From Acidobacteriota bacterium (GTDB lineage Bacteria > Acidobacteriota > Terriglobia > Terriglobales > Acidobacteriaceae): a stretch of DNA of 45,510 bases. The DNA lies in NCBI GenBank assembly GCA_021851465.1, contig JAJZDL010000001.1, positions 1 through 45,510 of the forward strand. The letters run 5' to 3'. The notes under the pieces were generated by a model. The model ran no database searches. It was not told where the DNA came from and saw only the letters and a list, made by a program, of their open reading frames with translations. Below are positions 1,359 through 22,550 of the stretch, in pieces. Numbering within the stretch: the first letter of the stretch is position 1; the number at the start of each line of letters is the position of its first letter. The translations under genes were made by a program, and so were the position numbers.

Positions 1359-3839
1359 ATGGCCGACCTCACCGCGCTCCTCCACTCCACATTCGGCTTC
1401 CCCGCCTTCCGTCCCAACCAGGAGGCCGTCTGCCGCGCCGTCACCGAGGGCCGAGACGCTCTGCTCGTCATGCCCACCGGAGCAGGAAAGTCCCTCTGCT
1501 ACCAGCTTCCCGCCATCGCCCGCGGAGGCACCGCGCTCGTCGTCAGCCCCCTCATCGCGCTCATGGACGACCAGGCCGCCAAGCTCACCTCCCACGGCCT
1601 GCGCGTCGCCCGAATCCACTCCGGCCTCTCCCGCGACGAGGCTCGCGCCGCCTGCCGCGACTACCTCGACGGCACCCTCGACTTCCTCTTCATCGCGCCC
1701 GAGCGCATGCGCATCCCCGGCTTTCCCGAGATGCTCGCCCGCCGCAAGCCAACCCTCATCGCCATCGACGAGGCCCATTGCATCAGCGCCTGGGGGCACG
1801 ACTTCCGCCCCGATTACCGCACCCTCGGCGACCACCTCCCCGCCCTCCGCCCCGCGCCCATCCTCGCCCTCACAGCAACCGCCACCCCCACCGTCCAGAA
1901 AGACATCGTCGCCCAGCTCCACCTCGCAGACCCCGCACTCTTCATCCACGGCTTCCGCCGCACCAACCTCGCCATCGAAGCGGTCGAGATGTCCAAGCCG
2001 CGACGCCCCGAGTTCACCGTCAAGCTCCTCCAAAACCCCGCCGCGCGCCCAGCCATCGTCTACACGCCCTCGCGCCGCTCTGCCGAAGATCTCGCTGCCG
2101 GCCTCGCTCGACACTGCCCCGCCGCGGCATACCACGCCGGTCTCGACGCCGGCGTCCGCACGCGCGTCCAACGCGCCTTCCAAGCCGGAAAGATCGAGGT
2201 CGTCGTCGCCACCATCGCCTTCGGTATGGGCATCGACAAGGCAGACGTCCGCACCGTCGTCCACACCGCCCTGCCAGCCTCCGTCGAGGCCTTCTATCAG
2301 GAGATCGGTCGTGCCGGGCGCGACGGCCGGCCCAGCCGCGCCGTCCTCCTCTACAGCTTCGTGGACCGCAAAATTCACGAGTCCTTCCTCGATCGCGACT
2401 ACCCGCCCGCCAACGATCTCGCCCGCGTCGCCAAGGCCCTCACCGACGAGTTCCTCATGCCCGAGCCGCTCGCCCAGCGCCTCAAGATGGATCTCGCCGC
2501 CTTCACCAAGGCCGTCGAGAAGCTCGTCGCCCACGGTGCAGCGCAGCTCGACTTCGCAGGAAACGTCCGCCGCGCCGATGCCCCGCAGCACACCGCATCC
2601 ACCGAAACCTGGCGCTCCGCCTACGAAGCACAGGTCGCCTTCCGCCGCGACCAGATCGACCGCATGGCTGCCTTCGCCGAATCCAATCAATGCCGCATGA
2701 CCGCCATCGTCCGCCACTTCGGGGACACCGCGGACGCCGCCCGTCCCTGCGGCCTCTGCGACGTATGCTCGCCCGCCGCCGCCACCGCGCAGAGCTTCCG
2801 CCCGCCCACTGCCGAAGACCTCCGCCAGCTCGCCGCCATCCTGCAAGTGCTCGACGACACACCCAGACGCGCCACCTCCACCGGAAAGCTCTTCACCGCG
2901 CTCGCCGAAGGCCCCCTGCGCCGCACTCCCGCCGCCAAAGATCGCAAGCTCTTCGACTCGCTCCTCGACGCCCTCGCGCGCGCCGCGCTCATCACCCTCA
3001 CTCCCGACACCTTCACCAACTCCGAAGGCAACGTCATCACATACAAAAAAGCCACCCTCACCCACGAAGGCCACGAGGCCGCCGCCACCGGAAAAATCCA
3101 CGCCCCAGACATCCTGCTGCCGAACACCGACGAATCCAACACCCCAATCGCAAAGTCCAAGAAGTCGACGTCCATCAAAGCCACGCGCAAGACTGAGCGC
3201 GACCAAACGACCGCAGCCTATACTCCCGCGCAGCAGCAGCTCGACGAAGCTCTCCGCGCATGGCGCAAGGCCGAAGCCGCCAAAACCGGCAAGCCTGCCT
3301 TCATCGTCTTCGGCGACGCTGTTCTCCGCAATCTCGTTATAGCCAATCCGCAGACGGTCTCGGAACTGCTCGCCATCTCCGGCATCGGCCCCGACAAGTC
3401 CGACCAATTCGGCGCAGAGATCATCGCCATCTGCCGCGCAGTAATTTCCACTGAACCAGCCTCACCGCATCCTAATAATCTACCGTCAACCCGACCGGAG
3501 CGAAGCGAAGTGGAGGGACCTCCGCATTTTGCTCGCAGCGCCACCGATTCCGGCAGCGCCTCTACCCCCACCTTCCATCGCACTCGCCCAATCGTCGCCG
3601 ATCCCACCGCCGCGCTCTCGCCGGCCCAGCAACAACTCGACGCCGAGCTCCGCGCATGGCGCAAGGCCGAAGCCGAGCGCATCGGCCTGCCCCAGTTCTT
3701 CGTGCTCGGCTCCTCCGCGCTGCGCAGCATCGTCCTGCTCCGCCCCCGCACCGTCGCCCAGCTACAGTCCGTCTCCGGCATCGGCCCCGAGAAGACTGCA
3801 AAGTTCGGTGCCGCAATCCTCGCCCTCTGCAACGCATGA
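1359..3839 (+). CDS. recQ: ATP-dependent DNA helicase RecQ with two HRDC domains
   Basis: FGFPAFRPNQ, MPTGAGKSLCYQ, DEAHCISAWGHDFRP, ATIAFGMGIDK, QEIGRAGRDG, Zn motif CRM...CGLCDVC, and two LRAWRK...HRDC repeats. Confidence 0.95.
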   Translation: MADLTALLHSTFGFPAFRPNQEAVCRAVTEGRDALLVMPTGAGKSLCYQLPAIARGGTALVVSPLIALMDDQAAKLTSHGLRVARIHSGLSRDEARAACRDYLDGTLDFLFIAPERMRIPGFPEMLARRKPTLIAIDEAHCISAWGHDFRPDYRTLGDHLPALRPAPILALTATATPTVQKDIVAQLHLADPALFIHGFRRTNLAIEAVEMSKPRRPEFTVKLLQNPAARPAIVYTPSRRSAEDLAAGLARHCPAAAYHAGLDAGVRTRVQRAFQAGKIEVVVATIAFGMGIDKADVRTVVHTALPASVEAFYQEIGRAGRDGRPSRAVLLYSFVDRKIHESFLDRDYPPANDLARVAKALTDEFLMPEPLAQRLKMDLAAFTKAVEKLVAHGAAQLDFAGNVRRADAPQHTASTETWRSAYEAQVAFRRDQIDRMAAFAESNQCRMTAIVRHFGDTADAARPCGLCDVCSPAAATAQSFRPPTAEDLRQLAAILQVLDDTPRRATSTGKLFTALAEGPLRRTPAAKDRKLFDSLLDALARAALITLTPDTFTNSEGNVITYKKATLTHEGHEAAATGKIHAPDILLPNTDESNTPIAKSKKSTSIKATRKTERDQTTAAYTPAQQQLDEALRAWRKAEAAKTGKPAFIVFGDAVLRNLVIANPQTVSELLAISGIGPDKSDQFGAEIIAICRAVISTEPASPHPNNLPSTRPERSEVEGPPHFARSATDSGSASTPTFHRTRPIVADPTAALSPAQQQLDAELRAWRKAEAERIGLPQFFVLGSSALRSIVLLRPRTVAQLQSVSGIGPEKTAKFGAAILALCNA
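3484..3545 (+). repeat. Family A palindromic repeat embedded in-frame in recQ
   Basis: CGTCAACCCGACCGGAGCGAAGCGAAGTGGAGGGACCTCCGCATTTTGCTCGCAGCGCCACC encodes STRPERSEVEGPPHFARSAT between the HRDC domains. Confidence 0.75.
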
Positions 3840-4166
3840 CCCACCCGACAAAGCACTGAAGCACCGTCATCCCACCCAGCCCGCCGTCATCCCGAGTGAG
3901 CATCCCCCTCCCCTCCGTGCCAACGCAAGATGATTTTCCCTCAGCCATGAGTTGCCAGGGGAAGGTGTCGTTGCAGGCAGCTTGCAGGCGCTTGCCGCGA
4001 ACGCTGCCTTTGGTGTCCTTGTGATAGGGCTTTAGGGAACCCTCCATATCCCCATCTCATTCCTTCCACCCCATGCTGCATAGACCCGCTATGGTGCGTT
4101 TGCCCTGCCGGCCGATGACCGGGGGAACGCGAATTGCCGCACCTGCGGTATTCTGGCGGTTCGGCC

Positions 4167-7019
4167 ATGGCGAATGAGACGATGAGCGACGCAAGCGCGC
4201 AGACCCCGGTGATGCGGCAGTACTTTGCCGCCAAGGAGGCACATCCCGATTGTCTGATGCTCTGCCGCATCGGGGACTTCTACGAGCTTTTCTACGAGGA
4301 CGCAATCGTGGCCTCACGCGAGCTGCAACTGACCCTGACCGCGCGCGACCGCGAGAAGAAGCAGCCTATGTGTGGCGTTCCCTACCACGCCGCCGAGCAG
4401 TACATCCAGCGGCTGCTGCGCAAGGGCTACCGGGTGGCGCTGTGCGAGCAGATGGAAGACCCCAAGCTGACCAAGAAGATCGTGCGCCGCGAGGTGACGC
4501 GCGTTTTGACGCCGGGAACGGTGGTGGATGCCAGCCTGGGCGCGGAGCAGAGCAACTGGCTGGCCGGCATCGCAGCAAGTGGCGAGCGGAACCAGACGCG
4601 GGTGGGGTTGGCGTTGCTCGATCTCTCTACCGGGGAGTTTCGCGCGACGGAGTTTGCCGGAGCGACGGCGTGGGCGCTGTTGGCCGATGAGTTGGGACAG
4701 GTGCGCCCTGCGGAGCTGCTCCTCGCTGAAGGCGGGATTGGCATCAGCGGTGGTTCGAGCGGCCTGCTGCCCACCATTCACGAGGATGCGGCAAAGGATG
4801 GGGTCTCCGATGCCTTAACTTCGAGCAAAGATGAGAACGCGGTGTTCGAAGGCGTGCGGACGAAGACTGCGTTGGAGGACTGGGTCTTTACGGCGGAGTA
4901 CGCCGTCCCGTTGCTACACAGACAACTCGGCGTGCATTCGCTGGACGGCATGGGGCTGGGCGGGCATGAGACGGCGGCCGTGGCTGCAGGAGCACTCGTC
5001 CATTACTTACAGAAAACCATGCAGGGTGGTCTGGAACATATTGACACAATTCATTTTTATGAGCGAACGGAATGCCTTGTGCTGGATGCGGTAAGCGTGC
5101 GCAATCTGGAGCTGGTGGAGCCGCTATTCTCCGGCGAGTCGGCGCAGACGACGCTCTTCCATACGCTGGACGAATGCGCCACGCCGATGGGCAAGCGCCT
5201 GCTACGGGCGACGCTTCTGCGACCGGCGGCGACACTGGGTGAGATTGAGGCGCGGCTGGAAGCGGTGGGCGAGGCGGTGGGAGACCTGCGGGGGCGCGAG
5301 GCAGTGCGGCGAGCAATGAATGGTCTGCTCGACATGGAGCGGCTTCTGGGAAGGGTAGCGCTGGATTCCGCTGGACCGCGTGAGGTGATGGCGCTGGCCG
5401 GAACGCTGGCCTGCCTGCCGGGACTGCGGGATGCGGTGGGAAGTTTTAAAGCGAAGCGGTGGCGGGAGCTTTGGGGTGGTGGCGATCCTACCCACATCTC
5501 AGAATCGAGAGCTGGGGCATCCGCACCCAGTTCTGAGTCGGGCCCGTTATCCACAGCGATTTCCACAGGATTTGATGCGATGGAGGATCTGCGCGAGCGG
5601 ATCGTGAAGACGATTGCGGAGGAGCCTCCGGTGAGCTTTGCGGAGGGCGGGGTGATCCGCGCAGGGGTGGACGCGGAGCTGGATGAGCTGCGCGAACTGG
5701 GGCGCAGCGGGCGGCAGGCGCTGGCGGCGATCGAGGAGCGAGAGCGGCAGCGGACCGGGATCGGAAGCTTAAAAGTACGCTTCAACTCAGTCTTTGGATA
5801 TTACCTGGAAGTGACTAAGGCAAATAGTAGATCGGTTCCTTCAGACTACGAACGAAAGCAGACTCTGGTTAATGCGGAACGGTTTACGACGCCAGAGTTG
5901 AAGGAGTACGAGACGAAGATTCTGACCGCGCAGGAGCGTTCGGGAGAGATCGAGCGGCGGATCTTTGCGGAGTTGCGGCGTCGGTTGTTGGACGCGGCGG
6001 GCCGGATACGGGAGACGGCGCGCCGGGTGGCGGAGATTGACCTGCTGGCCTGTTTTGCACATCTCTCTGCGCTGCGAGGGTGGGTGCGGCCCCAGGTCGA
6101 GGAGTCGGGGGTGCTGGAGTTTGTGGCGGCGCGGCACCCCGTGGTGGAGCGGCGGATGGAGGAGTCGGGCGGTGGGCGGTTTGTGCCCAACTCAATCTCG
6201 CTGGAGGGTTGGAGTGGAGAGGGTTCGGCTGACTCCACAGGTGCGTCGATTGCGTTGATTACGGGACCGAATATGGGGGGCAAGAGCACCTATCTACGGC
6301 AGGCGGCCCTGCTTGTGGTGATGGCGCAGGTGGGATGTTTTGTGCCGGCGGAGCGGATGCGGCTGGGATTGGTGGATCGGATTTATACGCGGATCGGGGC
6401 CAGCGACAATGTGGCGCGTGGGCGGTCCACGTTCATGGTGGAGATGACGGAGACGGCTGCGATCCTGAACACTGCGACCGCGAAAAGTCTTGTTCTATTG
6501 GATGAGATGGGACGTGGAACTGCAACGTATGATGGACTTTCGCTCGCATGGGCTACCGTGGAACATCTGCACGAGAAGATCGGTTCGCGGACCCTGTTTG
6601 CGACCCATTATCACGAGCTGACGCTGCTGGAGGAGCGGCTGGCGCGGCTGAAGAACCTGCGCGTGACGGTGAAGGAGACACCGACGGGAATCGTCTTTTT
6701 GCACACGGTGGAAGCGGGAGCGGCGAGCAAGAGCTATGGCATCGAGGTGGCAAGGCTGGCGGGACTGCCGGGGGCTGTGATCGCGCGGGCGCGGGAGGTC
6801 CTGAAGCTGCATGAGCGGGCGGAGACGCAGCAGGTGGGTGCGGCGTTGACGCGCGGCGCGGGAGAGACGGCTGCCCCGGCGATCCAGATGACGATGTTTA
6901 CGCCCCTGTCGCAGAAGATTGTGGACCGGCTGGCGGAGGTGGATCTGGATGGACTGACCCCGAGGGAGGCACTGAATCTGTTGGCGGAGTTGCAGCGTGA
7001 GATGGGGGCTGGCTCGTGA
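4167..7019 (+). CDS. mutS: DNA mismatch repair protein MutS
   Basis: TPVMRQY, GDFYELF, ITGPNMGGKSTYLRQ, STFMVEM, DEMGRGT, FATHYHEL, SYGIEVARLAG, TPREAL. ATG 4167 is preferred over the TTG at 4134. Confidence 0.97.
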   Translation: MANETMSDASAQTPVMRQYFAAKEAHPDCLMLCRIGDFYELFYEDAIVASRELQLTLTARDREKKQPMCGVPYHAAEQYIQRLLRKGYRVALCEQMEDPKLTKKIVRREVTRVLTPGTVVDASLGAEQSNWLAGIAASGERNQTRVGLALLDLSTGEFRATEFAGATAWALLADELGQVRPAELLLAEGGIGISGGSSGLLPTIHEDAAKDGVSDALTSSKDENAVFEGVRTKTALEDWVFTAEYAVPLLHRQLGVHSLDGMGLGGHETAAVAAGALVHYLQKTMQGGLEHIDTIHFYERTECLVLDAVSVRNLELVEPLFSGESAQTTLFHTLDECATPMGKRLLRATLLRPAATLGEIEARLEAVGEAVGDLRGREAVRRAMNGLLDMERLLGRVALDSAGPREVMALAGTLACLPGLRDAVGSFKAKRWRELWGGGDPTHISESRAGASAPSSESGPLSTAISTGFDAMEDLRERIVKTIAEEPPVSFAEGGVIRAGVDAELDELRELGRSGRQALAAIEERERQRTGIGSLKVRFNSVFGYYLEVTKANSRSVPSDYERKQTLVNAERFTTPELKEYETKILTAQERSGEIERRIFAELRRRLLDAAGRIRETARRVAEIDLLACFAHLSALRGWVRPQVEESGVLEFVAARHPVVERRMEESGGGRFVPNSISLEGWSGEGSADSTGASIALITGPNMGGKSTYLRQAALLVVMAQVGCFVPAERMRLGLVDRIYTRIGASDNVARGRSTFMVEMTETAAILNTATAKSLVLLDEMGRGTATYDGLSLAWATVEHLHEKIGSRTLFATHYHELTLLEERLARLKNLRVTVKETPTGIVFLHTVEAGAASKSYGIEVARLAGLPGAVIARAREVLKLHERAETQQVGAALTRGAGETAAPAIQMTMFTPLSQKIVDRLAEVDLDGLTPREALNLLAELQREMGAGS
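4770..4809 (+). repeat. Degenerate family B repeat in-frame in mutS
   Basis: CCCACCATTCACGAGGATGCGGCAAAGGATGGGGTCTCCG resembles the 706-756 copy and lies in a non-conserved-looking loop (LLPTIHEDAAKDGVSD). Confidence 0.5.
5491..5528 (+). repeat. Family B repeat in-frame in mutS
   Basis: CCCACATCTCAGAATCGAGAGCTGGGGCATCCGCACCC; 31/38 identical to 8855-8892. Confidence 0.75.
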
Positions 7020-8236
7020 GAACCGTGAGAACAAAGACCGAAGCCAAGGCGATGGTGGTGGCGGGGGTGATGAGCGGAACGTCGGCGGATGGGGTCGATG
7101 TGGCAATCTGCCGGATTGCGCCGGGCGTGCGTGCGGGGGGTTCGCCGCGGGTGAGGCTGATTGGACTGCTGGAGACGAGCTACCCGAAGGCGGTGCGGAC
7201 AGCGGTGCTGCGCGTGATGGAGGGCGAGGCACTGACGGCGGCGGAGATCAGCCGGCTGAACTGGCGGCTTGGGCAAATCTACGCCGCTTGTGTGGAAGAC
7301 GCGGCGGCGAAGTTTGGGGTGAAGGTGGGACTGGTCGGGTGCCACGGGCAGACGGTACAGCATGAGACGCGGGCGGTGCGCTTCCTCGGCGCTGCGGTGC
7401 GATCGACGTGGCAGATGGGCGAGGCGGCGGTGATCGCAGAGCGGATGCGCTGCCCGGTGGTGAGCGACTTCCGACCGGCGGACCTGGCGACGGGCGGCGA
7501 GGGTGCGCCCTTGGTGCCGATGCTGGATTACTGTCTGTTTCGCTCGGCGAAGGTGGACCGTGTTCTGCTGAACCTGGGAGGGATTGCGAACCTGACGGCG
7601 ATTCCTGCGGGCGCGGGGCTGGATCGTGCGATGGCCTTCGATACCGGGCCGGGAAATATGGTCGTTGACCATTGCATGAGTGCGTTGTTTGGGAAGAAGT
7701 ACGACAGAGGCGGGGCGGGGTCGCGGCGCGGGCGGGTGCTGAGCGACGTGGCAGAGCGGCTGTTGCGGAAGACAAAATACTTCTCTCTGCTGCCGCCGAA
7801 GTCCTGCGGCCGGGAGGAGTTTGGCGCTGGATTTGCGGCGCGGCTGATTGGGCTGTGCCGTGCTGCGGGAGGAACGGATGAGGATTGTGTGGCGACGGCG
7901 ACGGCGCTGACGGCGGAGTCGGTGGTGGCGGCATACAGGAGCTTCGTGCGAGCGCATCTGGAAGCAGGCCCATCCGCCAAGGCTAAGACCGATCTGTGTG
8001 TTGCTGGGGGCGGGGCGCGGAATGAGACGCTGATGGCGATGCTGCGCACGGGGTTTGCGGAGCTGGGCGTGCGGGTGCGGGCGATGGAGGAGCTGGGCGT
8101 ACCGGCACAGGCCAAGGAGGGCATGGCGTTTGCGCTGCTGGCGTGGCTGACGTGGAACGGGCTGACGGGAAATGTTCCGGCGGCGACAGGAGCAGGACGG
8201 GCGGTGGTGCTGGGGAAGGTGAGCTGGCCGCGATGA
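7016..8236 (+). CDS. anmK: Anhydro-N-acetylmuramic acid kinase
   Basis: GVMSGTSADGVD, GCHGQTV, VSDFRPADLATGGEGAPLVP, LNLGGIANLT, FDTGPGN, PPKSCGREEF, GGGARN, AKEGMAFA. Start overlaps the mutS stop (GTGA). Confidence 0.95.
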   Translation: MRTVRTKTEAKAMVVAGVMSGTSADGVDVAICRIAPGVRAGGSPRVRLIGLLETSYPKAVRTAVLRVMEGEALTAAEISRLNWRLGQIYAACVEDAAAKFGVKVGLVGCHGQTVQHETRAVRFLGAAVRSTWQMGEAAVIAERMRCPVVSDFRPADLATGGEGAPLVPMLDYCLFRSAKVDRVLLNLGGIANLTAIPAGAGLDRAMAFDTGPGNMVVDHCMSALFGKKYDRGGAGSRRGRVLSDVAERLLRKTKYFSLLPPKSCGREEFGAGFAARLIGLCRAAGGTDEDCVATATALTAESVVAAYRSFVRAHLEAGPSAKAKTDLCVAGGGARNETLMAMLRTGFAELGVRVRAMEELGVPAQAKEGMAFALLAWLTWNGLTGNVPAATGAGRAVVLGKVSWPR

Positions 8237-9864
8237 GACTTCTTCGCTGCTCAATACTCGCTGCCGCGATGGCGATCGCAGGTTGCCATGGTCCGGTGCG
8301 GGAGGCGGGGACGGTGGTGGTGCTCCTGGAGAGCAGCCCGAACAACCTCGATCCACGGCAGGGAACGGACGCGCAGTCGGAGCATGTGGGCGGGTTGATC
8401 TTCGACGCGCTGGTGAAGAAGGACGAGCACTACAACCTCGTCCCGTGGCTGGCGACGAGCTGGGAGCAGCCGGACGCGCTGACCTGGGTCTTCCATCTGC
8501 GCGACGGGGTGCGGTTCCAGGACGGGCGACCGCTGGAGGCGGCGGATGTGGTTTGGACCATCGAGAGTTTGATCGAGCCAAAGCTGGCGGGTCTGATCTC
8601 GGCCAAGAGCGGTGCGTTCGCGACGGTGGACCATGCGGAGGCGCGCGACCGCCTGACCGTGGTGGTGCGCATGAAGCGGCCCGACGCAGGGCTGCTCTTC
8701 AATTTAAGCGATGGATTGTTTGGCGTGGTTCCGCGCGGCGCGGGCAGCGACTTCGGGCTGCATCCGATGGGGTCGGGGCCGTTCCGGTTTGTGAGCCAGG
8801 TGCAGGACAAGGATGTAGTGCTGGAGCGGTTTGATGGGTGCTGGAGCGATTCCCTCCAGGCCTCAGAATGGAGACCTGGGGCACCCGCACCCGGTAATAG
8901 CGGTCAGTTGCCGTATGCCAGTGGCCAGAAAGACCGGGCGATGATTCAACGATTGCGGTTCGAGGTGGTGCCGGACACGATCACGAGCGCGCTGGAGCTG
9001 CAAAAGGGAACGGCGGACGTGGCCAGCAATGTGCTGACGCCAGACATGGTCTACGCGCTGCGCGACGTTGCGGGGCTGGCGACGACGAGCGGGGCGGGGT
9101 CGAATGTGTGGTATCTGAACTTCAACGTGGCGGACCCGGCATTGCGCGACAAGCGAGTGCGGCAGGCCGTGGCGCTGGCGATGGATCGGCCCGCAATCGT
9201 CGCGGCGCTGTGGCGCGGAGAGGCACGGCTGGCAGATACGCTGCTGCCGCCGGGAGACTGGGCGGCGGCGACGGATGCGGAGCTGGCGCAGTATCCGCAC
9301 GACCCGGCGCGCGCGGCGGCGCTGCTACAGGCGGCGGGGTTGCCGGCGGGGCGCGACGGCATTCGGCTGCACCTGACGCTGAAGATCAGCACGGACGAGA
9401 CGACGCGGCTACTCGCGATGGTGTTGCAACAGCAGTTGCGCGCGGCGGGAATTGAGATACAGATACGCTCGGCGGAGTTTGGAACGTTCTATGCGGATGT
9501 AACGCACGGCGCGTTTCAGATGTACCTTCTGAAGTGGGTCGGGTCGAACGAAGACCCGGACATCTTTCGCTATATGTACGGGGCTGGGAGTTTTCCACCG
9601 AAGGGCGCGAACCGCGGGCACTATGTAAATGCACGGGGGGACGCTCTGTTGGCTCAGGCTGCGGCGGAGTCCGGACCGGCGGCGGTCGTGCAGGCGCGGC
9701 GGCGCACGGAGTACGTCGAGGTGCAGCAGATTCTGGCCGACGAGGCGCCCACCATTCCGTTGTGGTTCCCCGACAACGTGGTGGTTCATACGCGGCGATT
9801 GCATGGGGTGGCGCCGCGTGGAGACGGGAGCTTCGATTTTCTGCGCGATGCGTGGGTGCGGTAG
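8233..9864 (+). CDS. ABC transporter substrate-binding lipoprotein, family 5 (DppA/OppA-like)
   Basis: Lipobox IAGC; LDP, LATSWE, FHLRDGVRFQDG, GSGPF, VRQAVALAMDR, QQILADEAPTIPL. ATGA overlap with the anmK stop. Confidence 0.9.
   Translation: MRLLRCSILAAAMAIAGCHGPVREAGTVVVLLESSPNNLDPRQGTDAQSEHVGGLIFDALVKKDEHYNLVPWLATSWEQPDALTWVFHLRDGVRFQDGRPLEAADVVWTIESLIEPKLAGLISAKSGAFATVDHAEARDRLTVVVRMKRPDAGLLFNLSDGLFGVVPRGAGSDFGLHPMGSGPFRFVSQVQDKDVVLERFDGCWSDSLQASEWRPGAPAPGNSGQLPYASGQKDRAMIQRLRFEVVPDTITSALELQKGTADVASNVLTPDMVYALRDVAGLATTSGAGSNVWYLNFNVADPALRDKRVRQAVALAMDRPAIVAALWRGEARLADTLLPPGDWAAATDAELAQYPHDPARAAALLQAAGLPAGRDGIRLHLTLKISTDETTRLLAMVLQQQLRAAGIEIQIRSAEFGTFYADVTHGAFQMYLLKWVGSNEDPDIFRYMYGAGSFPPKGANRGHYVNARGDALLAQAAAESGPAAVVQARRRTEYVEVQQILADEAPTIPLWFPDNVVVHTRRLHGVAPRGDGSFDFLRDAWVR
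8855..8892 (+). repeat. Family B repeat in-frame in the ABC-binding gene
   Basis: TCCAGGCCTCAGAATGGAGACCTGGGGCACCCGCACCC, a hairpin CCAGG..CCTGG, encodes LQASEWRPGAPAP. Confidence 0.75.
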
Positions 9865-11918: not shown

Positions 11919-12727
11919 AGGCAGATGTGCGTTGTGTGCAGTGCGCCGCCGATTGCGATGGCGGCGATGGCTGCGGTCTCTGCGCGGAGGATGCGTGGGC
12001 CGAGGGTGACGTGCGTCCAGTGGTGCGTGGTGAATGCGGAGATCTCTTCGGGAGTCCAGCCGCCTTCCGGGCCGATGGCGAGGGCGAGGGTGGTGTCGCA
12101 GCGAGCAAAATGCGCGGGTTCTTCGCCCCGCTCAGAATAACAATCCTTCTTGCCATCATTAAAAAAAGGGCGAACGCCCTCCAACGCGGCGGCGAGGGTA
12201 AGCGACTGCTCGGTTTCGCTGAGGAGGATGCGCATGGGGGCGGACTCGCGGGCGAGTGCGGAGGGGAGCGAGATGGGGTCGAGGATCTCGGGGACATCGG
12301 TTCGGCGAGACTGCTTGGCGGATTCGAGGGCGATCCGCCGCCATCGCTCGACGCGCTTGGCGGCGGCGAGGGCAAGGTGTTTCTCCGTGCGGCGGGCGAG
12401 AATGGGCGTGATGCGGGCGACACCGAGTTCGGTGATTTTCTCGATGGCCCACTCGAAGCGGTCGAACTTGAAGACGGCAAGCAGGAGATGGATGGGGAGG
12501 GCCGCATCGGACTGCAACTCTTCGTGCAGGGTGAAGCGAACCTCCGATTCAGAGACCGCGGTGACTTCTGCGCGGTGGAGGAAGCCGTTGGCTACAACGT
12601 CGAAGACCTGGCCGGGCTGGGCGCGAAGGACGCGCGCGAGGTGGATCGCTTGCTCACCGGTGAGGGCGGCGTGGGTAGGGTGAGCGGATTGAGGCGACCA
12701 GGTGTCGGCGATCCAGCGGCGGCGCAT
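11915..12727 (-). CDS. rsmE: 16S rRNA m3U1498 methyltransferase
   Basis: HLARVLR, EKITELGV, ESAKQSRR, IGPEGG, LGPRILRAETA. Start at MRRRWIAD; convergent 4-bp overlap with dnaJ. Confidence 0.95.
   Translation of the reverse strand: MRRRWIADTWSPQSAHPTHAALTGEQAIHLARVLRAQPGQVFDVVANGFLHRAEVTAVSESEVRFTLHEELQSDAALPIHLLLAVFKFDRFEWAIEKITELGVARITPILARRTEKHLALAAAKRVERWRRIALESAKQSRRTDVPEILDPISLPSALARESAPMRILLSETEQSLTLAAALEGVRPFFNDGKKDCYSERGEEPAHFARCDTTLALAIGPEGGWTPEEISAFTTHHWTHVTLGPRILRAETAAIAAIAIGGALHTTHICL
12091..12142 (-). repeat. Family A repeat in-frame in rsmE
   Basis: TGTTATTCTGAGCGGGGCGAAGAACCCGCGCATTTT is 32/36 identical to the intergenic copy at 34327-34362 and encodes CYSERGEEPAHFARCDT. Confidence 0.85.
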
Positions 12728-15722: not shown

Positions 15723-15811
15723 GGGCGTTGGCCGCGGTACAGCCAAGCAATCGCCCTGGCCTCGCATCCGCTCGCCACGCTTTCCGCAGATGACAGGCGT
15801 ATAAAGGGCAA

Positions 15812-18745
15812 ATGCAATCCTCCGCTGCGCTGCCCCATCCGATTCAGCAGGCTCTTGAGCGCGGCTTTACCATTGTCACTGCCAACCAGCGCGCCGCCCG
15901 TACGCTGCATCGTGCCTTCGATCTCCACCAACGCGCTCGAAGCCGTCCATTCTGGGAGCCGCCCACGATCCTCGCCTGGGACGCCTGGCTCGCCGACCTC
16001 TGGCATCGTCTTCTGCTCGACGGAGTCGCAACCGAACTCCTGCTCAGCCCCACGCAGGAGCACACCCTCTGGCGCGCCGTCATCGACGACGATGCAGCGA
16101 CGACCGAAACAGTTGACAGCGCAACAGGCACCGCCGCGCTCAGCCTTCGCCCCATCGACTCGCTCGCCGCGCTCGCCGCCGACGCATGGAGCCTGCTGCA
16201 CGCCTACCGTGCCCGCCGTCGTCTGCAATCCGCCGTCGCGAGTACCGACACGCGCGCCTTCGCCCGCTGGGCCGGCGAATTCGACCGTCGCTCGGCCCGC
16301 GCGAAGTACCTCACCGAAGCGCAGCTCCCCGAAGCTCTGCGCGCCGCCATTGAAGCAGGCCGGCTCATCCCGCCAACCGGCCTCCTGCTCGTCGGCTTCG
16401 ACCTCAAAACGCCTGCGCAGTCTGCCCTGCTCGATGCCATCGCCGACGCTGGCTCCGCGATCCAAGAGTTCAGCCCGCAGATCGCGGCGGTCTCATCCAT
16501 CGCACTCGCACCGAGATCGCTGGAAAGTGCAGAGTGTGGGCCGGCCGCAACTCTCACCCTCGTCGCCGCGCCCGACGAGCGTGCCGAACTCGCCGCTTGC
16601 GCCCGCTGGCTGCGCGCCCACCTCATCGATCGGCCCACCGCCCGCATCGCCGTCGTCGTTCCCGCAATCGAGACCGACCGCGCCGAGATCGACCGCATCT
16701 TCCGCCAGGCGCTCGCGCCCGAGCTCAACCGCATCGCCGCGCCCGCCAACTCCGACCCATTCGAGTTTTCGCTCGGCATTCCGCTGGCCAACACACCGAT
16801 CGTCGCCACCGCGCTCGACATCCTGCGATGGGCCGCCGGTTCGCTCCCGCTCGACCGCGTCTCAGCGCTGCTGCTCTCGCCCCACTTCGCCGCAGACACC
16901 TCGCACGCCAACGGCGAACACCTCGCCCGCGCCGAGTTCGATGCCTTCGTCCTGCGCCAGCAACCTCTCCTCCAGCCGAGGATCTCGCTCGACGCGCTGC
17001 TCACCCTCGCCTCCAACCCGAAGCACGGCGCGGCCACTCTGCCCAACCTGCTCCAACACCTGAGCGCACTCCGACCGCTCTTCCTGCAACGCGGCCTCCT
17101 CACCGCCGAGCGCACCCACGCCGAATGGGCCGCAACCTTCCACGAGATCCTCGACGCCGCCGGATCGGCCGCGCCGGGCCGCGACAGCAGCGTCGAGTTC
17201 CAGGCCCGCCGCAAGTGGGAGTCCGCCCTCGACGAACTCACCACCCTCGACTTCGGCTCCCGCTCCGACGGCACGCGCGTCCGCTTCGCCGCCGCCCTCG
17301 ACGCGCTCGAACGCATCTGTGCACAGACACTCTTCGCCCCAGAATCCCGCCACGCACCCATCCAGATCATGGGCCCGCTGGAGTCCGCAGGCTCCACCTT
17401 CGACGCTCTCTGGTTCCTGCGCGCCAGCGACCTCGCATGGCCCTCCAAACCCACGCCGAATCCGCTCCTGCCCTGGCTGCTGCAACGCGACCTTGCCATG
17501 CCCGGAGCCAACCCAACGCACGACGCCGCACACGCACGCAACATCACCCAACGCATCGCTGCCTGCGCGCCAACCGTCCTCTTCAGCTACGCGCAGCAGA
17601 CCGTCGACGGATCCCAGCGTCCGTCCTCCGTCGTCACCGCCCTCGCCGCATCCGGCCTCACGCTCGATCTCCGCACCGCCGAGGAGATCGCTCCCTGCGA
17701 ATCCGCGCCCGCGCCCATCGCCCTCGAAGCCATCCCCGACGATGCACCCATTCCGCCTCCGCCAGACCGCACTCTGCGTGGCGGCGCATCCATCCTCGCC
17801 GCGCAGGCCGCCTGCGGCTTCCGTGCCTTCGCCGAAAAGCGCCTCTTCTCCTCTGCGCTCGAACCCTCCACGTTCGGCCTCGACCCACGCCAGCGCGGCA
17901 GCCTCGTCCACGCCACTCTGGAGAGCTTCTGGTCCCACGTCGAAACGCAGGCCGCACTCCAGCTTCTGGCCATCGAAGAGCGCGACGGCATCCTCTCCCA
18001 CTGCATCGACGCCGCCATCGCTCGGCATCTCCCCAATCCCGCGCCCGGCTGGCCCCGCGCCTACCTCCTCGCCGAACGACAGCGCCTGCTCAACCTCCTC
18101 CGCTCGTGGCTCGACTTCGAGGCCACCGAACGCATGCCCTTCACCGTCAAGTCCTGCGAAGAGATGCTTCGCGACGTCCAGATCGGCCCGCTCCGCATCG
18201 AGATCCGCGTCGACCGCATCGACACCATCCAACTCCCTGCCGCCCCAGACGAGGACACTCCCGAAGAAGTCTCGTCAGCCAACAACCCACTCTCCGGCGA
18301 GATCATCCTCGACTACAAGACCGGCCCGGCCAGCACCGCCGACTGGCTCGGCGACCGCCCCGACGCGCCCCAACTTCCCCTCTACGCCGTCGTCTCCGAA
18401 GTCCCCAACCTCGCCGCCATCGCCTTCGCCAGCGTCCGCCCCGGCAAGGATCTCGGCCTGCTCGGCTACCAGTCGCGCGATGGACTCCTCCCCAAGGCCG
18501 CGAAGCTGAAGACCGAGAGCCTCGCAGCCCAGGTCGAGCAGTGGCGCGCCGTCCTCACCGCCCTCGCCGAGGACTTCCACTCCGGCAACGCGCGCGTCGA
18601 TCCCAAGCACTACCCGAAGACCTGCGAGCACTGCGATCAGCGCCTGCTCTGCCGCCTCAACCCCGCCACCCTCGACGCCGCCTCCGATGAAGACTCCGAC
18701 ACGGACGACTCCATCCCCACTGCTCAGGAGGCCGCCCGTGGCTGA
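15812..18745 (+). CDS. addB: AddB-like DNA repair protein (inactive helicase fold plus PD-(D/E)XK nuclease with Fe-S cysteines)
   Basis: VTANQRAAR, FSLGIPL, QAACGFRAF, RGSLVH, RVDRID, ILDYKTG, PQLPLYA, CEHCDQRLLC. Coupled to the downstream UvrD-type helicase/nuclease. Confidence 0.85.
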   Translation: MQSSAALPHPIQQALERGFTIVTANQRAARTLHRAFDLHQRARSRPFWEPPTILAWDAWLADLWHRLLLDGVATELLLSPTQEHTLWRAVIDDDAATTETVDSATGTAALSLRPIDSLAALAADAWSLLHAYRARRRLQSAVASTDTRAFARWAGEFDRRSARAKYLTEAQLPEALRAAIEAGRLIPPTGLLLVGFDLKTPAQSALLDAIADAGSAIQEFSPQIAAVSSIALAPRSLESAECGPAATLTLVAAPDERAELAACARWLRAHLIDRPTARIAVVVPAIETDRAEIDRIFRQALAPELNRIAAPANSDPFEFSLGIPLANTPIVATALDILRWAAGSLPLDRVSALLLSPHFAADTSHANGEHLARAEFDAFVLRQQPLLQPRISLDALLTLASNPKHGAATLPNLLQHLSALRPLFLQRGLLTAERTHAEWAATFHEILDAAGSAAPGRDSSVEFQARRKWESALDELTTLDFGSRSDGTRVRFAAALDALERICAQTLFAPESRHAPIQIMGPLESAGSTFDALWFLRASDLAWPSKPTPNPLLPWLLQRDLAMPGANPTHDAAHARNITQRIAACAPTVLFSYAQQTVDGSQRPSSVVTALAASGLTLDLRTAEEIAPCESAPAPIALEAIPDDAPIPPPPDRTLRGGASILAAQAACGFRAFAEKRLFSSALEPSTFGLDPRQRGSLVHATLESFWSHVETQAALQLLAIEERDGILSHCIDAAIARHLPNPAPGWPRAYLLAERQRLLNLLRSWLDFEATERMPFTVKSCEEMLRDVQIGPLRIEIRVDRIDTIQLPAAPDEDTPEEVSSANNPLSGEIILDYKTGPASTADWLGDRPDAPQLPLYAVVSEVPNLAAIAFASVRPGKDLGLLGYQSRDGLLPKAAKLKTESLAAQVEQWRAVLTALAEDFHSGNARVDPKHYPKTCEHCDQRLLCRLNPATLDAASDEDSDTDDSIPTAQEAARG

Positions 18746-21700
18746 ACTCCTCCGCTTCCCTGGCAATGCCCAGCCGCTCCCGCCGCCTGACGCCGAAGCT
18801 CGACGCGAGGCCCTCGACATCCACCGCTCCTTCATCGTCGAAGCCCCCGCCGGCTCCGGCAAGACCGGCCTGCTCATCCAGCGCCTCCTCAAGCTCCTCG
18901 CCGACGACTCGGTCGAGCAGCCCGAACAGGTCCTCGCCATCACCTTCACCAACAAGGCCACCGCAGAGTTGCGCGACCGCGTCCTCGCCCACCTCACCGC
19001 CGCCGCAGAAACCGAAGCCGCCAAACCGAAAGTCCTGACACAGCTCGCAGCCGCCGCGGAGGAACCACCGCCAGCCTCAACGGATTTCCAGTCGGAAACG
19101 CTCGCCCTCGCCCACTCCGTCCTCGCCCGCGACCGCCAGATCGGCTGGAACCTCCTCGACCAGCCGCACCGCCTCAACATCCGCACCATCGACTCGGTCT
19201 GCGCAGAGATCGCCCGCACCCTCCCCGTCCTCTCCGGTTCGGGCGGTCGCCTCACGCCCACCACCGACGCCGACCCACTGCACCGCGAGGCCGCCCGCCG
19301 CACCCTTCTTCTCCTCGGTTCCGGCGACTCCGACCTCGACACCGCCCTGCGCGACCTCCTCCTCCACCGCGACGGCAACCTCGCCGACTGCGAGTCCCTC
19401 CTCGCCAACATGCTCAGCCTGCGCGACCAGTGGGGCAACCTCATCCCCCTCGCCCGCCCACATCTCGACGACGCATGGCTCGACGCCAACGTCCTGCCTC
19501 GCCTCGAGCTTGCCCTCGACCAAGCCATCCGCGCCGACCTCACCACCCTCGCGCAGGCCTTCCCCGCCAACCTCCTCGCAGACCTCACCAACCTCGCCGC
19601 AGACCTCGCTCCCGCCGCCCCATACGATCCCGAACTCCCGTCGCCCATCGCCCTCTGCGCCAACCTCCGAACCCCACCCGAAGCCCTCGCCGAGCACCTC
19701 GACCACTGGCTCTCCCTGATTCACCTGCTCATCGTCGGCGATGGAGGCTGGCGCAAGGAAAGAGGCATCACCGGAAAAAACTTAAAGTTTGGCTACAACA
19801 GAAAACACTCCAACCACACCCGCCTGGTCTCCCTGATTGACGCCCTCCGCGACCGCGACGACCTCCTACGCACCTTCGAGAAGATCCGCTCCCTGCCGCC
19901 CGCCCACTACCCCGCCGACCAGTGGACCGTCGCCAAGTCTCTCTTCCGCGTCCTCAGCCGCGCTCTGGTCGAGCTCCAGTTCGTCTTCGCCGCCCGCAAC
20001 CAGTGCGACTTCACCGAACTCAGCCTCCTCGCCCGCCACGCCCTCGCCGCAGACTCCGGCCCAGAAGACCTCGCCTCCGCACTCGGTGCGCGCCTCCAGC
20101 ACCTCCTCGTCGACGAGATGCAGGACACCTCAACCAGTCAGTACACCCTCATCGAACTCCTCACCGCCTCGTGGGACGGATACTCACAGACCGTCTTTCT
20201 AGTCGGCGACCCCCGCCAATCCATCTACCTCTTCCGCCAGGCCCGTGTCGAGCGTTTCCTCCGCGCCCTGCACTCCCAACACCTCGGCGACCTACCTCTC
20301 ACCCGCCTCTGCCTCACCGCTAACTTCCGCTCTCAGAGTGCTCTAGTCGAAGAGTTCAACCAAAACTTTAGCTTAATGTTCCCTCCCAAAGACGACCTCC
20401 CCTACACATCTGCCGACCCCACCCTCCCCGCCTCGCCCCACGCCCACGCCACCGTCTGGCACGCCAACCCCATCGCGTCGATCCCGGACGACGCAGCCAC
20501 CGCCCCTCTCACTCTCGCCCAACTCAAGCAGCAACAATCCCGCCGAGACGCCCTCGAAGTCCGCAGCATCGCCCGCGTATGGCTCACCAAGCCGCTTCCC
20601 GCAGGTCGAACCAAACCCTGGCAGCTCGCCGTCCTCGTCTCCAACCGGAAACACCTCAACGAGATCGTCGCTGCCCTCAAACAACAGGATGACCTCGGCC
20701 TAATTCCCTTCCGCGCCGTCGAGATCGAAGCCCTCAGCGACCGCCAGGAGATCCTCGACCTCACCGCGCTCACCCGCGCTCTGCTTCATCCCGCCGACCG
20801 AGTCGCCGCCCTCGCCGTCCTGCGCGCCCCCTGGTGCGGCCTCTCGCTCGCCGACCTGCACACCCTCACCGGGGCCGACGATCCCACCCTCCAAAGCCAC
20901 TCCATCCACAGCCTCATCGAGAATCGCGCTCACCTCCTCCCCGACGACTCCCGCCAGCGCCTTCAACGAGTCGGCAAGGTTCTCGCCGACGCCACCGCCC
21001 AGCGCACCCGCCTCACCCCCGCCCAGTTCGTCGAGCGCGCTTGGCGCTCCCTCGGAGGAGACGTATTTCTCAACAGGACTCAACTCAATAACACAATTAT
21101 TTTCTTTCAGTTATTGGATAAACTTCAACTTCAAGAAAAAGATAGTTCGTCCATCAATCTGCTCGACCCAACCCTCCTCCAAGCCCACCTACAAAAGCTC
21201 TACGCCGAACCCGATCCAATCCCCCCCGGAACCCCCTTCGTCGAACTCCTCACCATCCACAAGGCCAAGGGCCTGGAGTGGGATGTCGTTGTCGTTCCCG
21301 CCCTCGAGCGCGGCCCCGGCAGAAGCCCAACCCGTCTCCTCACCTGGTCTGAGATCGACACCGCACTCCAGCCCGCCACCTCCGAAGGCCAGCCCAACGA
21401 CCGCCCGGCCCACATCATGCTCGCACCCATCGCCGGTCGCGGCGAACCGTCGAAGGCCCTCAACAACTGGCTCAACGCAATCCACAGCGCCCGCGAGGCC
21501 GCCGAGCGCAAGCGCCTCTTCTACGTCGCCTGCACCCGCGCCCGAGAGGAGCTGCACCTCTTCGCCGCTCCCACCGTCTCCGCCAAAGGGCAGATCGTCC
21601 CTCGCTACAACAGCCTCCTCAACGCCGCATGGCCCGCCGCCCAGCCCCACTTCGCCGCCGCGGAGACAGACCCCAGCCAAGAGAATCCATCCTCCCGACC

Positions 21701-22550
21701 GGAGCACAGTGCAGTGGTGGCTCCCCCGCATCTTTCCCCGAACGCCATGGAACCTCTCCCCTTGACCCTGGATCTCGCCGCCTCAGCAGCCTTCACACTC
21801 GAACGCCTTCCTCTCGCCTTCGATCCCGACGAGCGCATCGCCGCCGCGCGCGCCCAAAGGCTCCCCAGCGGCGACCCAGACAGCGGCCCCGCCTCCAACC
21901 ACGCCCCGTTCTCTCGTCCCGAAGGCTCCTTTGCCGCGCGCTCCTTCGGCAACGTCGTCCACGCCGCGCTCGAATCCTGCGCCACCCGCATCGCCACCGG
22001 CCACTCCCCCGCCGCGTTGCTCGCCGAACTCCCCACCTGGCCCCCGCGCCTCGCCGCCCTCCTGCGCGCAGACGGCCTGCCCCACGCCACCGTCAACCGC
22101 CTCGCCCTCGAAGCGCAGGCCACCCTCGAAAACACCCTGCGCGATCCCGACGGCCTCTGGCTGCTCGCGCCAAACGCCTGCGCCTCCAGCGAGCTTGCCC
22201 TCACCGCATGGCCCACGCCTCAAACCGCCAACGGCCAGGCCGCCATCCACCCCATCTCTATCCGCATCGACCGCATCTTTCGCGCCGGGGCCGACCCTCG
22301 CGCCCCCGGCGAGGACGTCCTCTGGATCGTCGATTACAAGACCTCCACGCCGCACAGCTCCGCCAGCCTCGACGACTTCCTCGCCCACCAGCGCGCCACC
22401 TACGCCCCACAACTCGAAACCTACGCCCGCATCCTCACCCAGCTTCCGCACCCCCCGGACCTCCCCGCACCCAAGAAGGTTCGTCTCGCGCTCTACTACC
22501 CCGCCCTGCCCCGCCTCGACTGGTGGCCGCTCGCCATGCCATCCGCCTGA
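18738..22550 (+). CDS. addA: AddA-like UvrD helicase / RecB-family nuclease
   Basis: APAGSGKT, AITFTNKA, LVDEMQD, VGDPRQSIYLFR, NFRS, TIHKAKGLE, YVACTRA, IDR...VDYKT, QLETY. GTG 18738 follows AGGAGG and overlaps the addB stop. Confidence 0.9.
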   Translation: MAELLRFPGNAQPLPPPDAEARREALDIHRSFIVEAPAGSGKTGLLIQRLLKLLADDSVEQPEQVLAITFTNKATAELRDRVLAHLTAAAETEAAKPKVLTQLAAAAEEPPPASTDFQSETLALAHSVLARDRQIGWNLLDQPHRLNIRTIDSVCAEIARTLPVLSGSGGRLTPTTDADPLHREAARRTLLLLGSGDSDLDTALRDLLLHRDGNLADCESLLANMLSLRDQWGNLIPLARPHLDDAWLDANVLPRLELALDQAIRADLTTLAQAFPANLLADLTNLAADLAPAAPYDPELPSPIALCANLRTPPEALAEHLDHWLSLIHLLIVGDGGWRKERGITGKNLKFGYNRKHSNHTRLVSLIDALRDRDDLLRTFEKIRSLPPAHYPADQWTVAKSLFRVLSRALVELQFVFAARNQCDFTELSLLARHALAADSGPEDLASALGARLQHLLVDEMQDTSTSQYTLIELLTASWDGYSQTVFLVGDPRQSIYLFRQARVERFLRALHSQHLGDLPLTRLCLTANFRSQSALVEEFNQNFSLMFPPKDDLPYTSADPTLPASPHAHATVWHANPIASIPDDAATAPLTLAQLKQQQSRRDALEVRSIARVWLTKPLPAGRTKPWQLAVLVSNRKHLNEIVAALKQQDDLGLIPFRAVEIEALSDRQEILDLTALTRALLHPADRVAALAVLRAPWCGLSLADLHTLTGADDPTLQSHSIHSLIENRAHLLPDDSRQRLQRVGKVLADATAQRTRLTPAQFVERAWRSLGGDVFLNRTQLNNTIIFFQLLDKLQLQEKDSSSINLLDPTLLQAHLQKLYAEPDPIPPGTPFVELLTIHKAKGLEWDVVVVPALERGPGRSPTRLLTWSEIDTALQPATSEGQPNDRPAHIMLAPIAGRGEPSKALNNWLNAIHSAREAAERKRLFYVACTRAREELHLFAAPTVSAKGQIVPRYNSLLNAAWPAAQPHFAAAETDPSQENPSSRPEHSAVVAPPHLSPNAMEPLPLTLDLAASAAFTLERLPLAFDPDERIAAARAQRLPSGDPDSGPASNHAPFSRPEGSFAARSFGNVVHAALESCATRIATGHSPAALLAELPTWPPRLAALLRADGLPHATVNRLALEAQATLENTLRDPDGLWLLAPNACASSELALTAWPTPQTANGQAAIHPISIRIDRIFRAGADPRAPGEDVLWIVDYKTSTPHSSASLDDFLAHQRATYAPQLETYARILTQLPHPPDLPAPKKVRLALYYPALPRLDWWPLAMPSA
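21688..21735 (+). repeat. Degenerate family A repeat in-frame in addA
   Basis: CATCCTCCCGACCGGAGCACAGTGCAGTGGTGGCTCCCCCGCATCTTT aligns with the recQ copy and encodes SSRPEHSAVVAPPHL in the helicase-nuclease linker. Confidence 0.65.

What the first reader, a model, noticed from the sequence alone, without database searches (positions are those of the whole stretch)
3484..21735. Intergenic palindromic repeats invading housekeeping proteins in-frame (RPE-like system)
Seen: two repeat families with intergenic copies in this window also occur six times inside intact ORFs. Family A is in recQ (3484), rsmE (12091) and addA (21688); family B is in mutS (4770, 5491) and the ABC-binding gene (8855). 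Family A copies share orientation and frame (PERSEVEGPPHF / SERGEEPAHF / PEHSAVVAPPHL), as do the two best family B copies (SESRAGASAP / SEWRPGAPAP). All appear to fall in loops or linkers. Known: Rickettsia palindromic elements do this. Inference: a general route to new peptide inserts in this lineage, at about one per 3 kb of coding DNA here, with four of six in DNA-repair genes.
Basis: partly seen in the sequence, partly recalled or inferred. Interest (0 to 1): 0.8.

Follow-up and report, generated by a model that had tools for sequence, protein, structure and literature searches.

The report
Strand-polar hairpin repeats inside housekeeping proteins
Two families of short DNA hairpins that are common between the genes of this bacterium also sit in frame inside dozens of its core genes, mostly enzymes that handle tRNA and rRNA; they nearly always point the same way relative to the local G-versus-C strand bias and were likely spread by two unrelated small single-strand nucleases.

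Summary
Real, and genome-wide. Five of the six window inserts score clearly against models built from intergenic copies elsewhere; addA is weaker but supported. The genome (likely Acidobacteriaceae) holds 40 copies inside ORFs, against 0 in three codon-shuffled controls. That is about one per 50 kb of coding DNA, not one per 3 kb. Hosts are mainly tRNA/rRNA enzymes (15 of 37 genes; control 7 of 79); DNA repair is not enriched outside this window. Orthologues show the same loops empty, or refilled by different repeats. Family B flanks the genome's one RAYT gene. Family A flanks small GIY-YIG genes in relatives; none was found in this assembly. Beyond the known kind: the tagged strand lies on the locally C-rich strand (236 of 256 clusters here, 43 of 47 and 99 of 99 copies in two relatives), whatever the gene direction, and antisense inserts use one frame only. 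In-frame REP/RPE inserts are published (Di Nocera 2013), and this scan noted similar inserts, nuclease partners and skew polarity on other DNA. Mobilisation, translation and the cause of the polarity are inferred.

The parts
1359..3839 (+). recQ-family helicase with two HRDC domains; host gene (C-rich third positions)
3484..3529 (+). family A (subfamily A4) copy in frame in the linker between the two HRDC domains, residues ~709-724
   Evidence: 31.1 bits; 42 of 46 bases to an intergenic copy of G011; A4 at the same place in 5 of 29 orthologues
4167..7019 (+). mutS; host gene (G-rich third positions); start codon from my own gene caller
4770..4803 (-). decayed family B1 copy, antisense, residues ~202-213, in a loop about 30 residues longer than in E. 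coli MutS
   Evidence: 15.2 bits; better-kept copies (33-49 bits) at the same site in 4 orthologues
5489..5523 (-). family B2 copy, antisense, residues ~441-453, in a segment missing from 16 of 29 orthologues
   Evidence: 31.2 bits
8296..9864 (+). family 5 solute-binding protein; host gene (start uncertain)
8856..8887 (-). family B2 copy, antisense, in a variable loop; 3 of 29 orthologues carry a B1 copy there instead
   Evidence: 28.0 bits
11915..12727 (-). rsmE 16S rRNA methyltransferase; host gene
12107..12143 (-). family A1 copy, sense, residues 195-207; predicted disordered loop; 5 of 29 orthologues carry family B copies in this loop, none an A copy
   Evidence: 32.6 bits
18738..22550 (+). 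AddA/RecB-type helicase-nuclease; host gene
21688..21733 (+). decayed family A4 copy in the helicase-nuclease linker; weakest of the six
   Evidence: 6.6 bits; 34 of 46 bases, shuffles at most 30; not seen in 29 orthologues
609..649 (+). intergenic family A3 copy
   Evidence: 32.2 bits
713..739 (+). partial intergenic family B1 copy
   Evidence: 10.4 bits
10671..10704 (-). intergenic family A1 copy
   Evidence: 30.2 bits
12781..12818 (-). intergenic family A1 copy
   Evidence: 46.3 bits
15254..15289 (-). intergenic family A5 copy near the G-rich to C-rich switch
   Evidence: 16.0 bits
22618..22653 (+). intergenic family A1 copy
   Evidence: 50.9 bits
34326..34362 (+). intergenic family A1 copy
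   Evidence: 51.3 bits
39912..39944 (+). intergenic family A1 copy
   Evidence: 25.0 bits
44131..44193 (+). intergenic family A3 copy
   Evidence: 54.3 bits
44441..44488 (+). intergenic family A2 copy
   Evidence: 58.6 bits
4500..15000 (.). G-rich block on the + strand (skew +0.23 to +0.29 per 1.5 kb) between C-rich blocks; every copy of 15 bits or more inside it is on the - strand, every one in the C-rich blocks on the + strand; edges approximate

Best explanation
Two families of 35-65-base DNA hairpins that are abundant between genes also sit in frame in variable loops of at least 37 genes of this genome, and were likely spread as non-autonomous passengers of two unrelated single-strand nucleases, a small GIY-YIG protein for family A and a RAYT tyrosine transposase for family B. 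Shown: repeat identity, open frames, empty and differently filled loops in orthologues, each family beside its own nuclease gene, and the strand rule (tagged strand on the locally C-rich strand). Inferred: each enzyme reads only the tagged strand as single-stranded DNA (shown in vitro for SsnA and E. coli TnpA-REP, not for these). A copy therefore enters, or survives, on one particular strand of the replication fork, and the local GC skew records which strand that is. The host gene's skew then decides sense or antisense insertion. Selection keeps only copies that hold the frame, fall in a tolerant loop and read as small polar peptides. The inserts are likely near-neutral passengers that build up in long-resident single-copy genes, not a device for tuning DNA repair.
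For: 40 in-ORF copies at 16 bits or more against 0, 0, 0 in codon-shuffled CDS. 52 copies in orthologues of 7 genes, concentrated in 1-5 site bins per gene, with both families and several subfamilies in one loop. The single Y1 transposase of the genome passes the RAYT model NF047646 (103 bits, cut-off 80), keeps HMH and the downstream Tyr, and has inverted B copies on both sides. B flanks 8 of 30 Y1 loci on both sides and 0 of 30 GIY-YIG loci; A flanks 0 of 30 Y1 loci on both sides. With models from this genome alone, A lies on both sides of 17 of 30 small GIY-YIG genes and on at least one side of 23 (my count). Strand rule: 243 of 258 and 23 of 23 (A, intergenic and in-ORF), 22 of 27 and 17 of 17 (B), random positions 1024 of 2000; 43 of 47 in G004; 99 of 99 in G016; 50 of 52 in orthologues, including a flip of orientation in the one G-rich ValRS with a copy at that site. 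No link to transcription direction (49 sense, 40 antisense between co-directional genes). Antisense copies use one phase: A 13 of 13, B 8 of 8, although a second antisense frame is open in most intergenic copies. A and B are about 46 and 7 times denser between genes than in them.
Against: No Ssn-like GIY-YIG gene was found in this 90%-complete assembly (one long UvrC-like match and one without flanking repeats), although A is its commonest repeat. No clean filled/empty allele pair was obtained, so insert ends, target site and duplication are undefined, and host loops are longer than the recognisable repeat. Translation is not shown. The skew is a mosaic of 10-40 kb blocks of both signs, and B orientation in complete chromosomes does not split at dnaA, so 'replication strand' is an inference. 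If C-rich marks the lagging strand, the polarity is opposite to that reported for IS200 (PMC3971601, passages). Skew is stronger near copies (0.46 within 300 bp, 0.31 beyond 4 kb), which a repeat-caused skew also predicts. The host classes were defined after the hosts were seen.
Confidence: 0.68

Rival explanations
1. The repeats and their nucleases create the local skew: nicks on the tagged strand lead to resection and resynthesis that expose the other strand, which loses C, and new copies enter co-oriented, so self-made skew domains replace a simple two-replichore pattern.
For: Skew rises toward copies (0.28 with no copy on the contig, 0.31, 0.36, 0.42, 0.46) and is stronger 5' of the tag (A -0.47 against -0.36; B -0.59 against -0.38 within 500 bp). 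In G016 the strongly skewed 20-kb pieces hold many copies and six weakly skewed ones hold none (some pieces were chosen for holding copies). Orientation does not switch at dnaA in G004.
Against: Across 33 genomes the density of the two counted patterns does not track skew at five orthologous genes (rho 0.15, p 0.41); G011, G028, G034 and G002 have few copies but strong skew (other subfamilies not counted, kin not independent). Several sign switches in G004 are abrupt between neighbouring genes, as rearrangement predicts. Decay with distance resembles that at control gene ends.
Confidence: 0.14
2. Copies spread without a dedicated nuclease, by recombination, gene conversion or template switching between existing copies; the nuclease genes only sit among them.
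For: No Ssn-like gene found in this assembly; tandem arrays of partial A units are common; no transposition shown.
Against: Family-specific pairing, A with GIY-YIG and B with RAYT and never crossed on both sides; in genomes with few A copies, those few flank the GIY-YIG gene (G016 C7, G030 C178); homologous recombination does not explain entry into unrelated loops.
Confidence: 0.1
3. The inserts are kept because they change the activity of DNA-repair or RNA-modifying enzymes (the mutator idea raised in PMC3733652).
For: Strong host bias toward tRNA/rRNA enzymes (15 of 37 against 7 of 79, p 2e-4); some inserts are shared by several species (mutS site 1, recQ linker); RsmE of Erythrobacter litoralis has a CGTC insert at a similar position (PMC3733652 supplement 3; not aligned).
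Against: The same loops take unrelated peptides, or none, in close relatives; inserts decay in sequence; DNA repair is not enriched outside the window; inserts are predicted disordered.
Confidence: 0.06
4. The matches are chance resemblances in fast-evolving, GC-rich linkers.
For: addA scores 6.6 bits and lies in a linker that varies in all orthologues; mutS 4770 is near the noise limit.
Against: Shuffle controls are empty at 16 bits; many copies score 30-55 bits; the strand and frame rules hold for in-ORF copies. For addA alone I put chance at about 0.15.
Confidence: 0.02

Closest known systems
Intragenic CGTC- and GTAG-tagged REPs, including Rickettsia RPE-4/RPE-6 (Di Nocera et al. 2013, PMC3733652; read: passages, section 15, first part of section 17, parts 1-2 of 3 of supplement 3)
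   Same: Short tagged hairpins, mostly intergenic, some in frame in genes. The TGTC/CGTC tag and the reading frames are alike (R. conorii CHSRESGNP, VIPAKAGI, ..RGND against CHSERSEESPHF, VILSEAKNPRI, ..AQND here). Hosts there include PolA, RecB, RsmE, IleRS and pseudouridine synthases.
   Different: Family A has a 5-bp outer stem, tandem G-A mismatches and mostly a GNA triloop instead of an 8-9 bp stem; the parts I read list no Acidobacteriaceae inserts, report CGTC repeats as lacking a transposase, stress DNA repair, and give no rule relative to GC skew.
Ssn single-domain GIY-YIG nucleases with NTS/SRM hairpins (Chenal et al. 2025, PMC11893778; read: passages, section 8, 16 rows plus others of supplementary file 11; files 13-14 not searched)
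   Same: About 100-residue stand-alone GIY-YIG genes flanked by (T/C)GTC-tagged hairpins; SsnA cuts only the tagged strand as ssDNA; homologues are listed for 12 of 16 Granulicella and Edaphobacter genomes.
   Different: The published SRM pattern matches 1 of 239 A copies and is near chance in those genomes (0.63-1.67 fold), so family A is a hairpin type that survey missed; mobilisation by Ssn is only suggested there; in-frame inserts are not treated in the passages read.
RAYT/TnpA-REP REPtrons (Ton-Hoang et al. 2012, PMC3333891; Quentin et al. 2018, PMC6006769 and its preprint; passages read)
   Same: HUH tyrosine transposase flanked by inverted hairpins with a short 5' foot; one gene, many dispersed hairpins; in-frame REP insertions known.
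   Different: The B foot is GGGTG(C), not GT[AG]G; B copies are mostly single, co-oriented with local skew, and 17 of 45 lie in genes; the subclass was not determined.
Rickettsia RPE-1 (Ogata et al. 2000, 2002; recalled, paper not held)
   Same: In-frame palindromic inserts in essential housekeeping proteins, at surface loops.
   Different: RPE-1 is recalled as about 150 bases; these are 35-65; no RPE-named NCBIfam model hit any of 40 proteins scanned.
Orientation bias of IS200/IS605 and other IS relative to local GC skew (Gomez et al. 2014, PMC3971601; passages read)
   Same: Single-strand mobile elements oriented by local skew, read as a proxy for fork direction.
   Different: That bias is for autonomous IS and partial; here it is over 90% for gene-less hairpins of two nuclease systems and follows 10-40 kb blocks.

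Membership tests
CGTC-tagged REP superfamily (family A) | Unpaired CGTC/TGTC tag at one end | tested here: met
   TGTC 211 and CGTC 11 of 227 full-length copies
CGTC-tagged REP superfamily (family A) | 8-9 bp stem starting AT, 4-5 base loop (families CGTC-1 to -4) | tested here: not met
   A1 folds as a 5-bp stem starting AT, a 2x2 G-A internal loop, a 2-bp stem and a GNA triloop in 90 of 108 training copies: same superfamily plan, not one of the four named families
CGTC-tagged REP superfamily (family A) | Head-to-head dimers predominate | not tested
   Dimers were not counted; local co-orientation points to single or tandem copies
Intragenic REP / RPE-like inserts | Dispersed palindrome inserted in frame in conserved proteins and absent from orthologues | tested here: met
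Intragenic REP / RPE-like inserts | Insert is translated and the protein works | not testable with these tools
   Indirect only: hosts include essential synthetases, conserved MutS motifs are intact, one antisense frame is used
Rickettsia RPE-1 proper | Sequence family match | tested here: not met
   No RPE-named NCBIfam hit in 40 proteins; that such models exist is recalled
Ssn nuclease with SRM repeats | Small single-domain GIY-YIG gene flanked by the hairpin | tested here: met
   In relatives: 17 of 30 loci on both sides with independent models; Pfam GIY-YIG only; not found in this assembly
Ssn nuclease with SRM repeats | Repeat fits the published SRM pattern | tested here: not met
   1 of 239 copies; 16 genome matches against 35 in a shuffle
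Ssn nuclease with SRM repeats | Protein in CDD cd10448; strand-specific ssDNA cleavage | not testable with these tools
   No CDD here; NCBIfam gave no family for 5 proteins
RAYT REPtron (family B) | HUH and catalytic Tyr, RAYT profile | tested here: met
   NF047646 103 bits, cut-off 80; sequence
RAYT REPtron (family B) | Gene flanked by inverted copies of the dispersed hairpin | tested here: met
   G000 C117; 8 of 30 Y1 loci
RAYT REPtron (family B) | 5' GT[AG]G tetranucleotide at the stem foot | tested here: not met
   Foot is GGGTG then C before the CCCA stem: works like a REP, not a canonical GTAG family
RAYT REPtron (family B) | Cleavage and strand transfer on the hairpin | not testable with these tools
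   needs biochemistry

The most novel reading that the evidence does not exclude
In this lineage two unrelated single-strand nuclease systems and their hairpins do not merely follow but generate 10-40 kb domains of strong strand asymmetry that are independent of the replichores. These domains dictate in which orientation and frame new peptides are written into a fixed set of hot-spot loops of tRNA/rRNA and repair enzymes: a self-organising, polar route to protein insertions.
Probability: 0.14. Interest if true: 0.82.

Novelty: new variant of a known kind. Interest (0 to 1): 0.52.

Why it matters
The lineage has cultured members and complete genomes, each repeat family has a candidate enzyme beside it, and the same loops were filled repeatedly. 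That makes two old questions testable: what moves CGTC-type and protein-coding palindromes, and whether such inserts are neutral. The near-absolute strand rule shared by a GIY-YIG and an HUH system gives a direct prediction for the mechanism. It also flags an unexplained mosaic of strong GC skew in these chromosomes. The basic phenomenon is published, which caps the interest.

Tried and rejected
First HMMs from this genome alone left recQ, the binding-protein copy and addA weak; subfamily models with relatives' intergenic copies resolved two of them. Those later models include GIY-YIG flanks, so 27 of 30 is circular and the count is the one to use. Rfam gave nothing at the inserts. Public runs: no RNA holder listed; contigs of 4 of the 6 listed DNA runs showed no joint skipping an insert among the rows shown, many rows not shown; neither is evidence. 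A two-replichore reading, suggested by G004, failed against dnaA position and the runs in G008, G012 and G028. An apparent 1.4-Mb one-way run in G016 was an effect of a cut listing (against 96). Transcription direction does not explain orientation. The 12 bases 5' of the tag are no more C-rich than the region, so a short target motif is not the cause. DNA folding energy is alike on both strands. The MutS model is low-confidence (mean pLDDT 57), so the alignment to E. coli MutS carries that point. Dropped from the host list: one 14.0-bit hit in an FkbH-like gene, one at a contig-end fragment, and three edge overlaps (LolA start, RlmD stop, RAYT stop). Kept but terminal or doubtful: DedA (start may lie downstream), YbeY and PadR tails. 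Searches for print on Acidobacteria inserts or a skew rule for REP-like hairpins found none beyond the papers named; most subscription papers are not in the library.


Full report
Setting. The window is contig C219 of a 2.6-Mb, 257-contig, 90%-complete genome. It is likely an Acidobacteriaceae member: this is inferred from Acidobacteria-type families among its genes and from the named relatives of a sister genome's GIY-YIG. Genes were called with my own hexamer model (2,124 genes, 2.10 Mb), so start codons are approximate.

The repeats. Family A begins TGTC or CGTC (222 of 227) and forms a 5-bp stem, tandem G-A mismatches and a variable inner hairpin, mostly with a GNA triloop. Six subfamilies differ in the inner part. 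Family B begins GGGTGC and forms a CCCA..TGGG hairpin in two forms. One A pattern occurs in 23 of 36 genus genomes and 0 of 24 of the sister family; one B pattern in 35 of 36 and 3 of 24.

The six sites. With models trained on intergenic copies outside the window, five score 15-33 bits and addA 6.6. recQ matches intergenic A4 copies of relatives at 39-42 of 46 bases and addA at 33-34; they are the two best sites in the genome, and shuffles reach 30. No intergenic A4 copy was found in this genome, so these two are likely older relics. Orthologues (29 per gene) show the second MutS segment missing in 16. The first MutS loop, the binding-protein loop and the RsmE loop are short in many and carry other repeat-derived peptides in some. 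RecQ and AddA sites are variable linkers. Against E. coli MutS both loops are about 30 residues longer and the conserved motifs are intact. RsmE residues 189-208 are a low-confidence coil between a helix and a strand.

Genome-wide. At 16 bits there are 258 intergenic and 23 in-ORF A copies, and 27 and 17 B copies; three codon-shuffled CDS sets give none. B enters genes far more often than A (p 8e-7). The 37 host genes (14.5 bits or more, plus AddA; two IleRS pieces counted once) include RlmD, DusB, IleRS, LeuRS, MetRS, ValRS, TruA, Era, YbeY, TlyA, MnmE, MnmG, TrmFO, RsmE and an ABC-F protein (15), and PolA, Fpg, RecQ, MutS, AddA (5). No ribosomal protein, elongation factor or RNA polymerase gene is a host. 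Of 79 length-weighted control genes from 20 random contigs, 4 are of the first class by the same definition, 7 with core translation added, and 1 (TatD) of the second. Fisher p is 2e-4 for the first class; 0.012 for the second, and 0.20 once window genes are removed. Hosts are strongly skewed (median 0.45 against 0.24), but none of the 22 control genes with skew of 0.3 or more is of the first class. Classes were drawn after seeing the hosts.

Recurrence. In orthologues of seven genes, 52 copies fall in 1-5 site bins per gene. One ValRS site holds B1, B2 or A3 copies in 8 genomes, and a MnmE loop holds B here and A5 in G036. Shared ancestry explains some (MutS site 1, RecQ), but different families in one loop need separate events; no tree was built.

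Mobilisers. The only Y1 transposase found is a RAYT with inverted B copies on both sides. Among 30 Y1 loci returned from 41 genus genomes, 8 have B on both sides; among 30 GIY-YIG loci returned from 61 genomes, A flanks both sides of 17 by independent models and B none. These are about 100-130-residue single-domain proteins like Ssn, but the SRM pattern misses family A. No such gene was found in this assembly.

Strand rule. Third-position skew runs from -0.7 to +0.5 and is shared by neighbours whichever strand they code on (r 0.81 and 0.61). The tagged strand lies on the C-rich side for 305 of 325 copies or 236 of 256 clusters, for 43 of 47 in 400 kb of the complete G004 chromosome, where one exception flanks a RAYT gene, and for 99 of 99 in 20 pieces of G016, some chosen for holding copies. 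Antisense copies keep one frame (21 of 21), the one ending ..QND or ..GAP rather than ..RMT or ..WGTR. I read this as selection for polar loops; a phase preference of insertion is not excluded. The cause of the rule is open. The skew is a block mosaic, B orientation does not switch at dnaA, and skew rises near copies; but repeat-poor relatives are as skewed.

Known and new. In-frame GTAG/CGTC repeats in repair genes, synthetases and RsmE are published (PMC3733652). Strand-specific recognition is shown for SsnA and TnpA-REP, and skew-linked orientation for IS families. I found no paper on these acidobacterial families in proteins or on a skew rule for such hairpins. The third part of Di Nocera's supplement 3, its files S4-S5 and two Chenal files were not seen and could list such cases. 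Earlier notes of this scan report like inserts, GIY-YIG partners and skew polarity in other genomes; they are unchecked and not counted as support.

Verdict. A real, lineage-wide, RPE-like process of a known kind, with a probable enzyme for each family, recurrent hot-spot loops and a strict strand polarity as the new features. Interest 0.52.

Noticed in passing
L405:1996-2595 (-) (G013) and L419:1861-2460 (+) (G027): ValRS of two relatives carries a whole EF-G domain IV (PF03764, E 2e-26 and 1e-34), about 115 residues, in the same loop that holds the family A insert in this genome's ValRS.
   Followed up: partly
window 1-45510; L253-L272 (G004); L373-L392 (G016): Chromosomes of this genus are a mosaic of 10-40 kb blocks of strong GC skew of either sign, independent of gene direction; orthologous genes usually keep but sometimes reverse their sign.
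   Followed up: partly
window 15809-15833 (-): The predicted start of addB (15812) lies inside a weak antisense A5 copy (12.9 bits): a possible seventh insert or donated start codon, within noise.
   Followed up: no
window 44590-44634 (-): Rfam Acido-Lenti-1 RNA at the gathering score (37.7 bits), about 100 bases from a family A2 copy.
   Followed up: no
L218 (G000 C206:4558-4631): DusB carries an A1 and a B2 copy back to back in one loop, 25 codons in all.
   Followed up: partly
G004:C1:3250097-3254846 (in L255): Two adjacent genes of 737 and 765 codons hold five in-frame copies between them; a GluRS-like gene at 3.526 Mb (named from its N-terminal motif, recalled) holds a near-consensus B2 copy.
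   Followed up: no
L164, L166, L176, L181: In several small GIY-YIG genes the downstream inverted family A copy is itself read in frame as the C-terminal tail of the nuclease (..AQDD..SSLRSE).
   Followed up: no
window 3866-3905: Two short degenerate family A heads in tandem just after the recQ stop codon (seen), below the model threshold.
   Followed up: no
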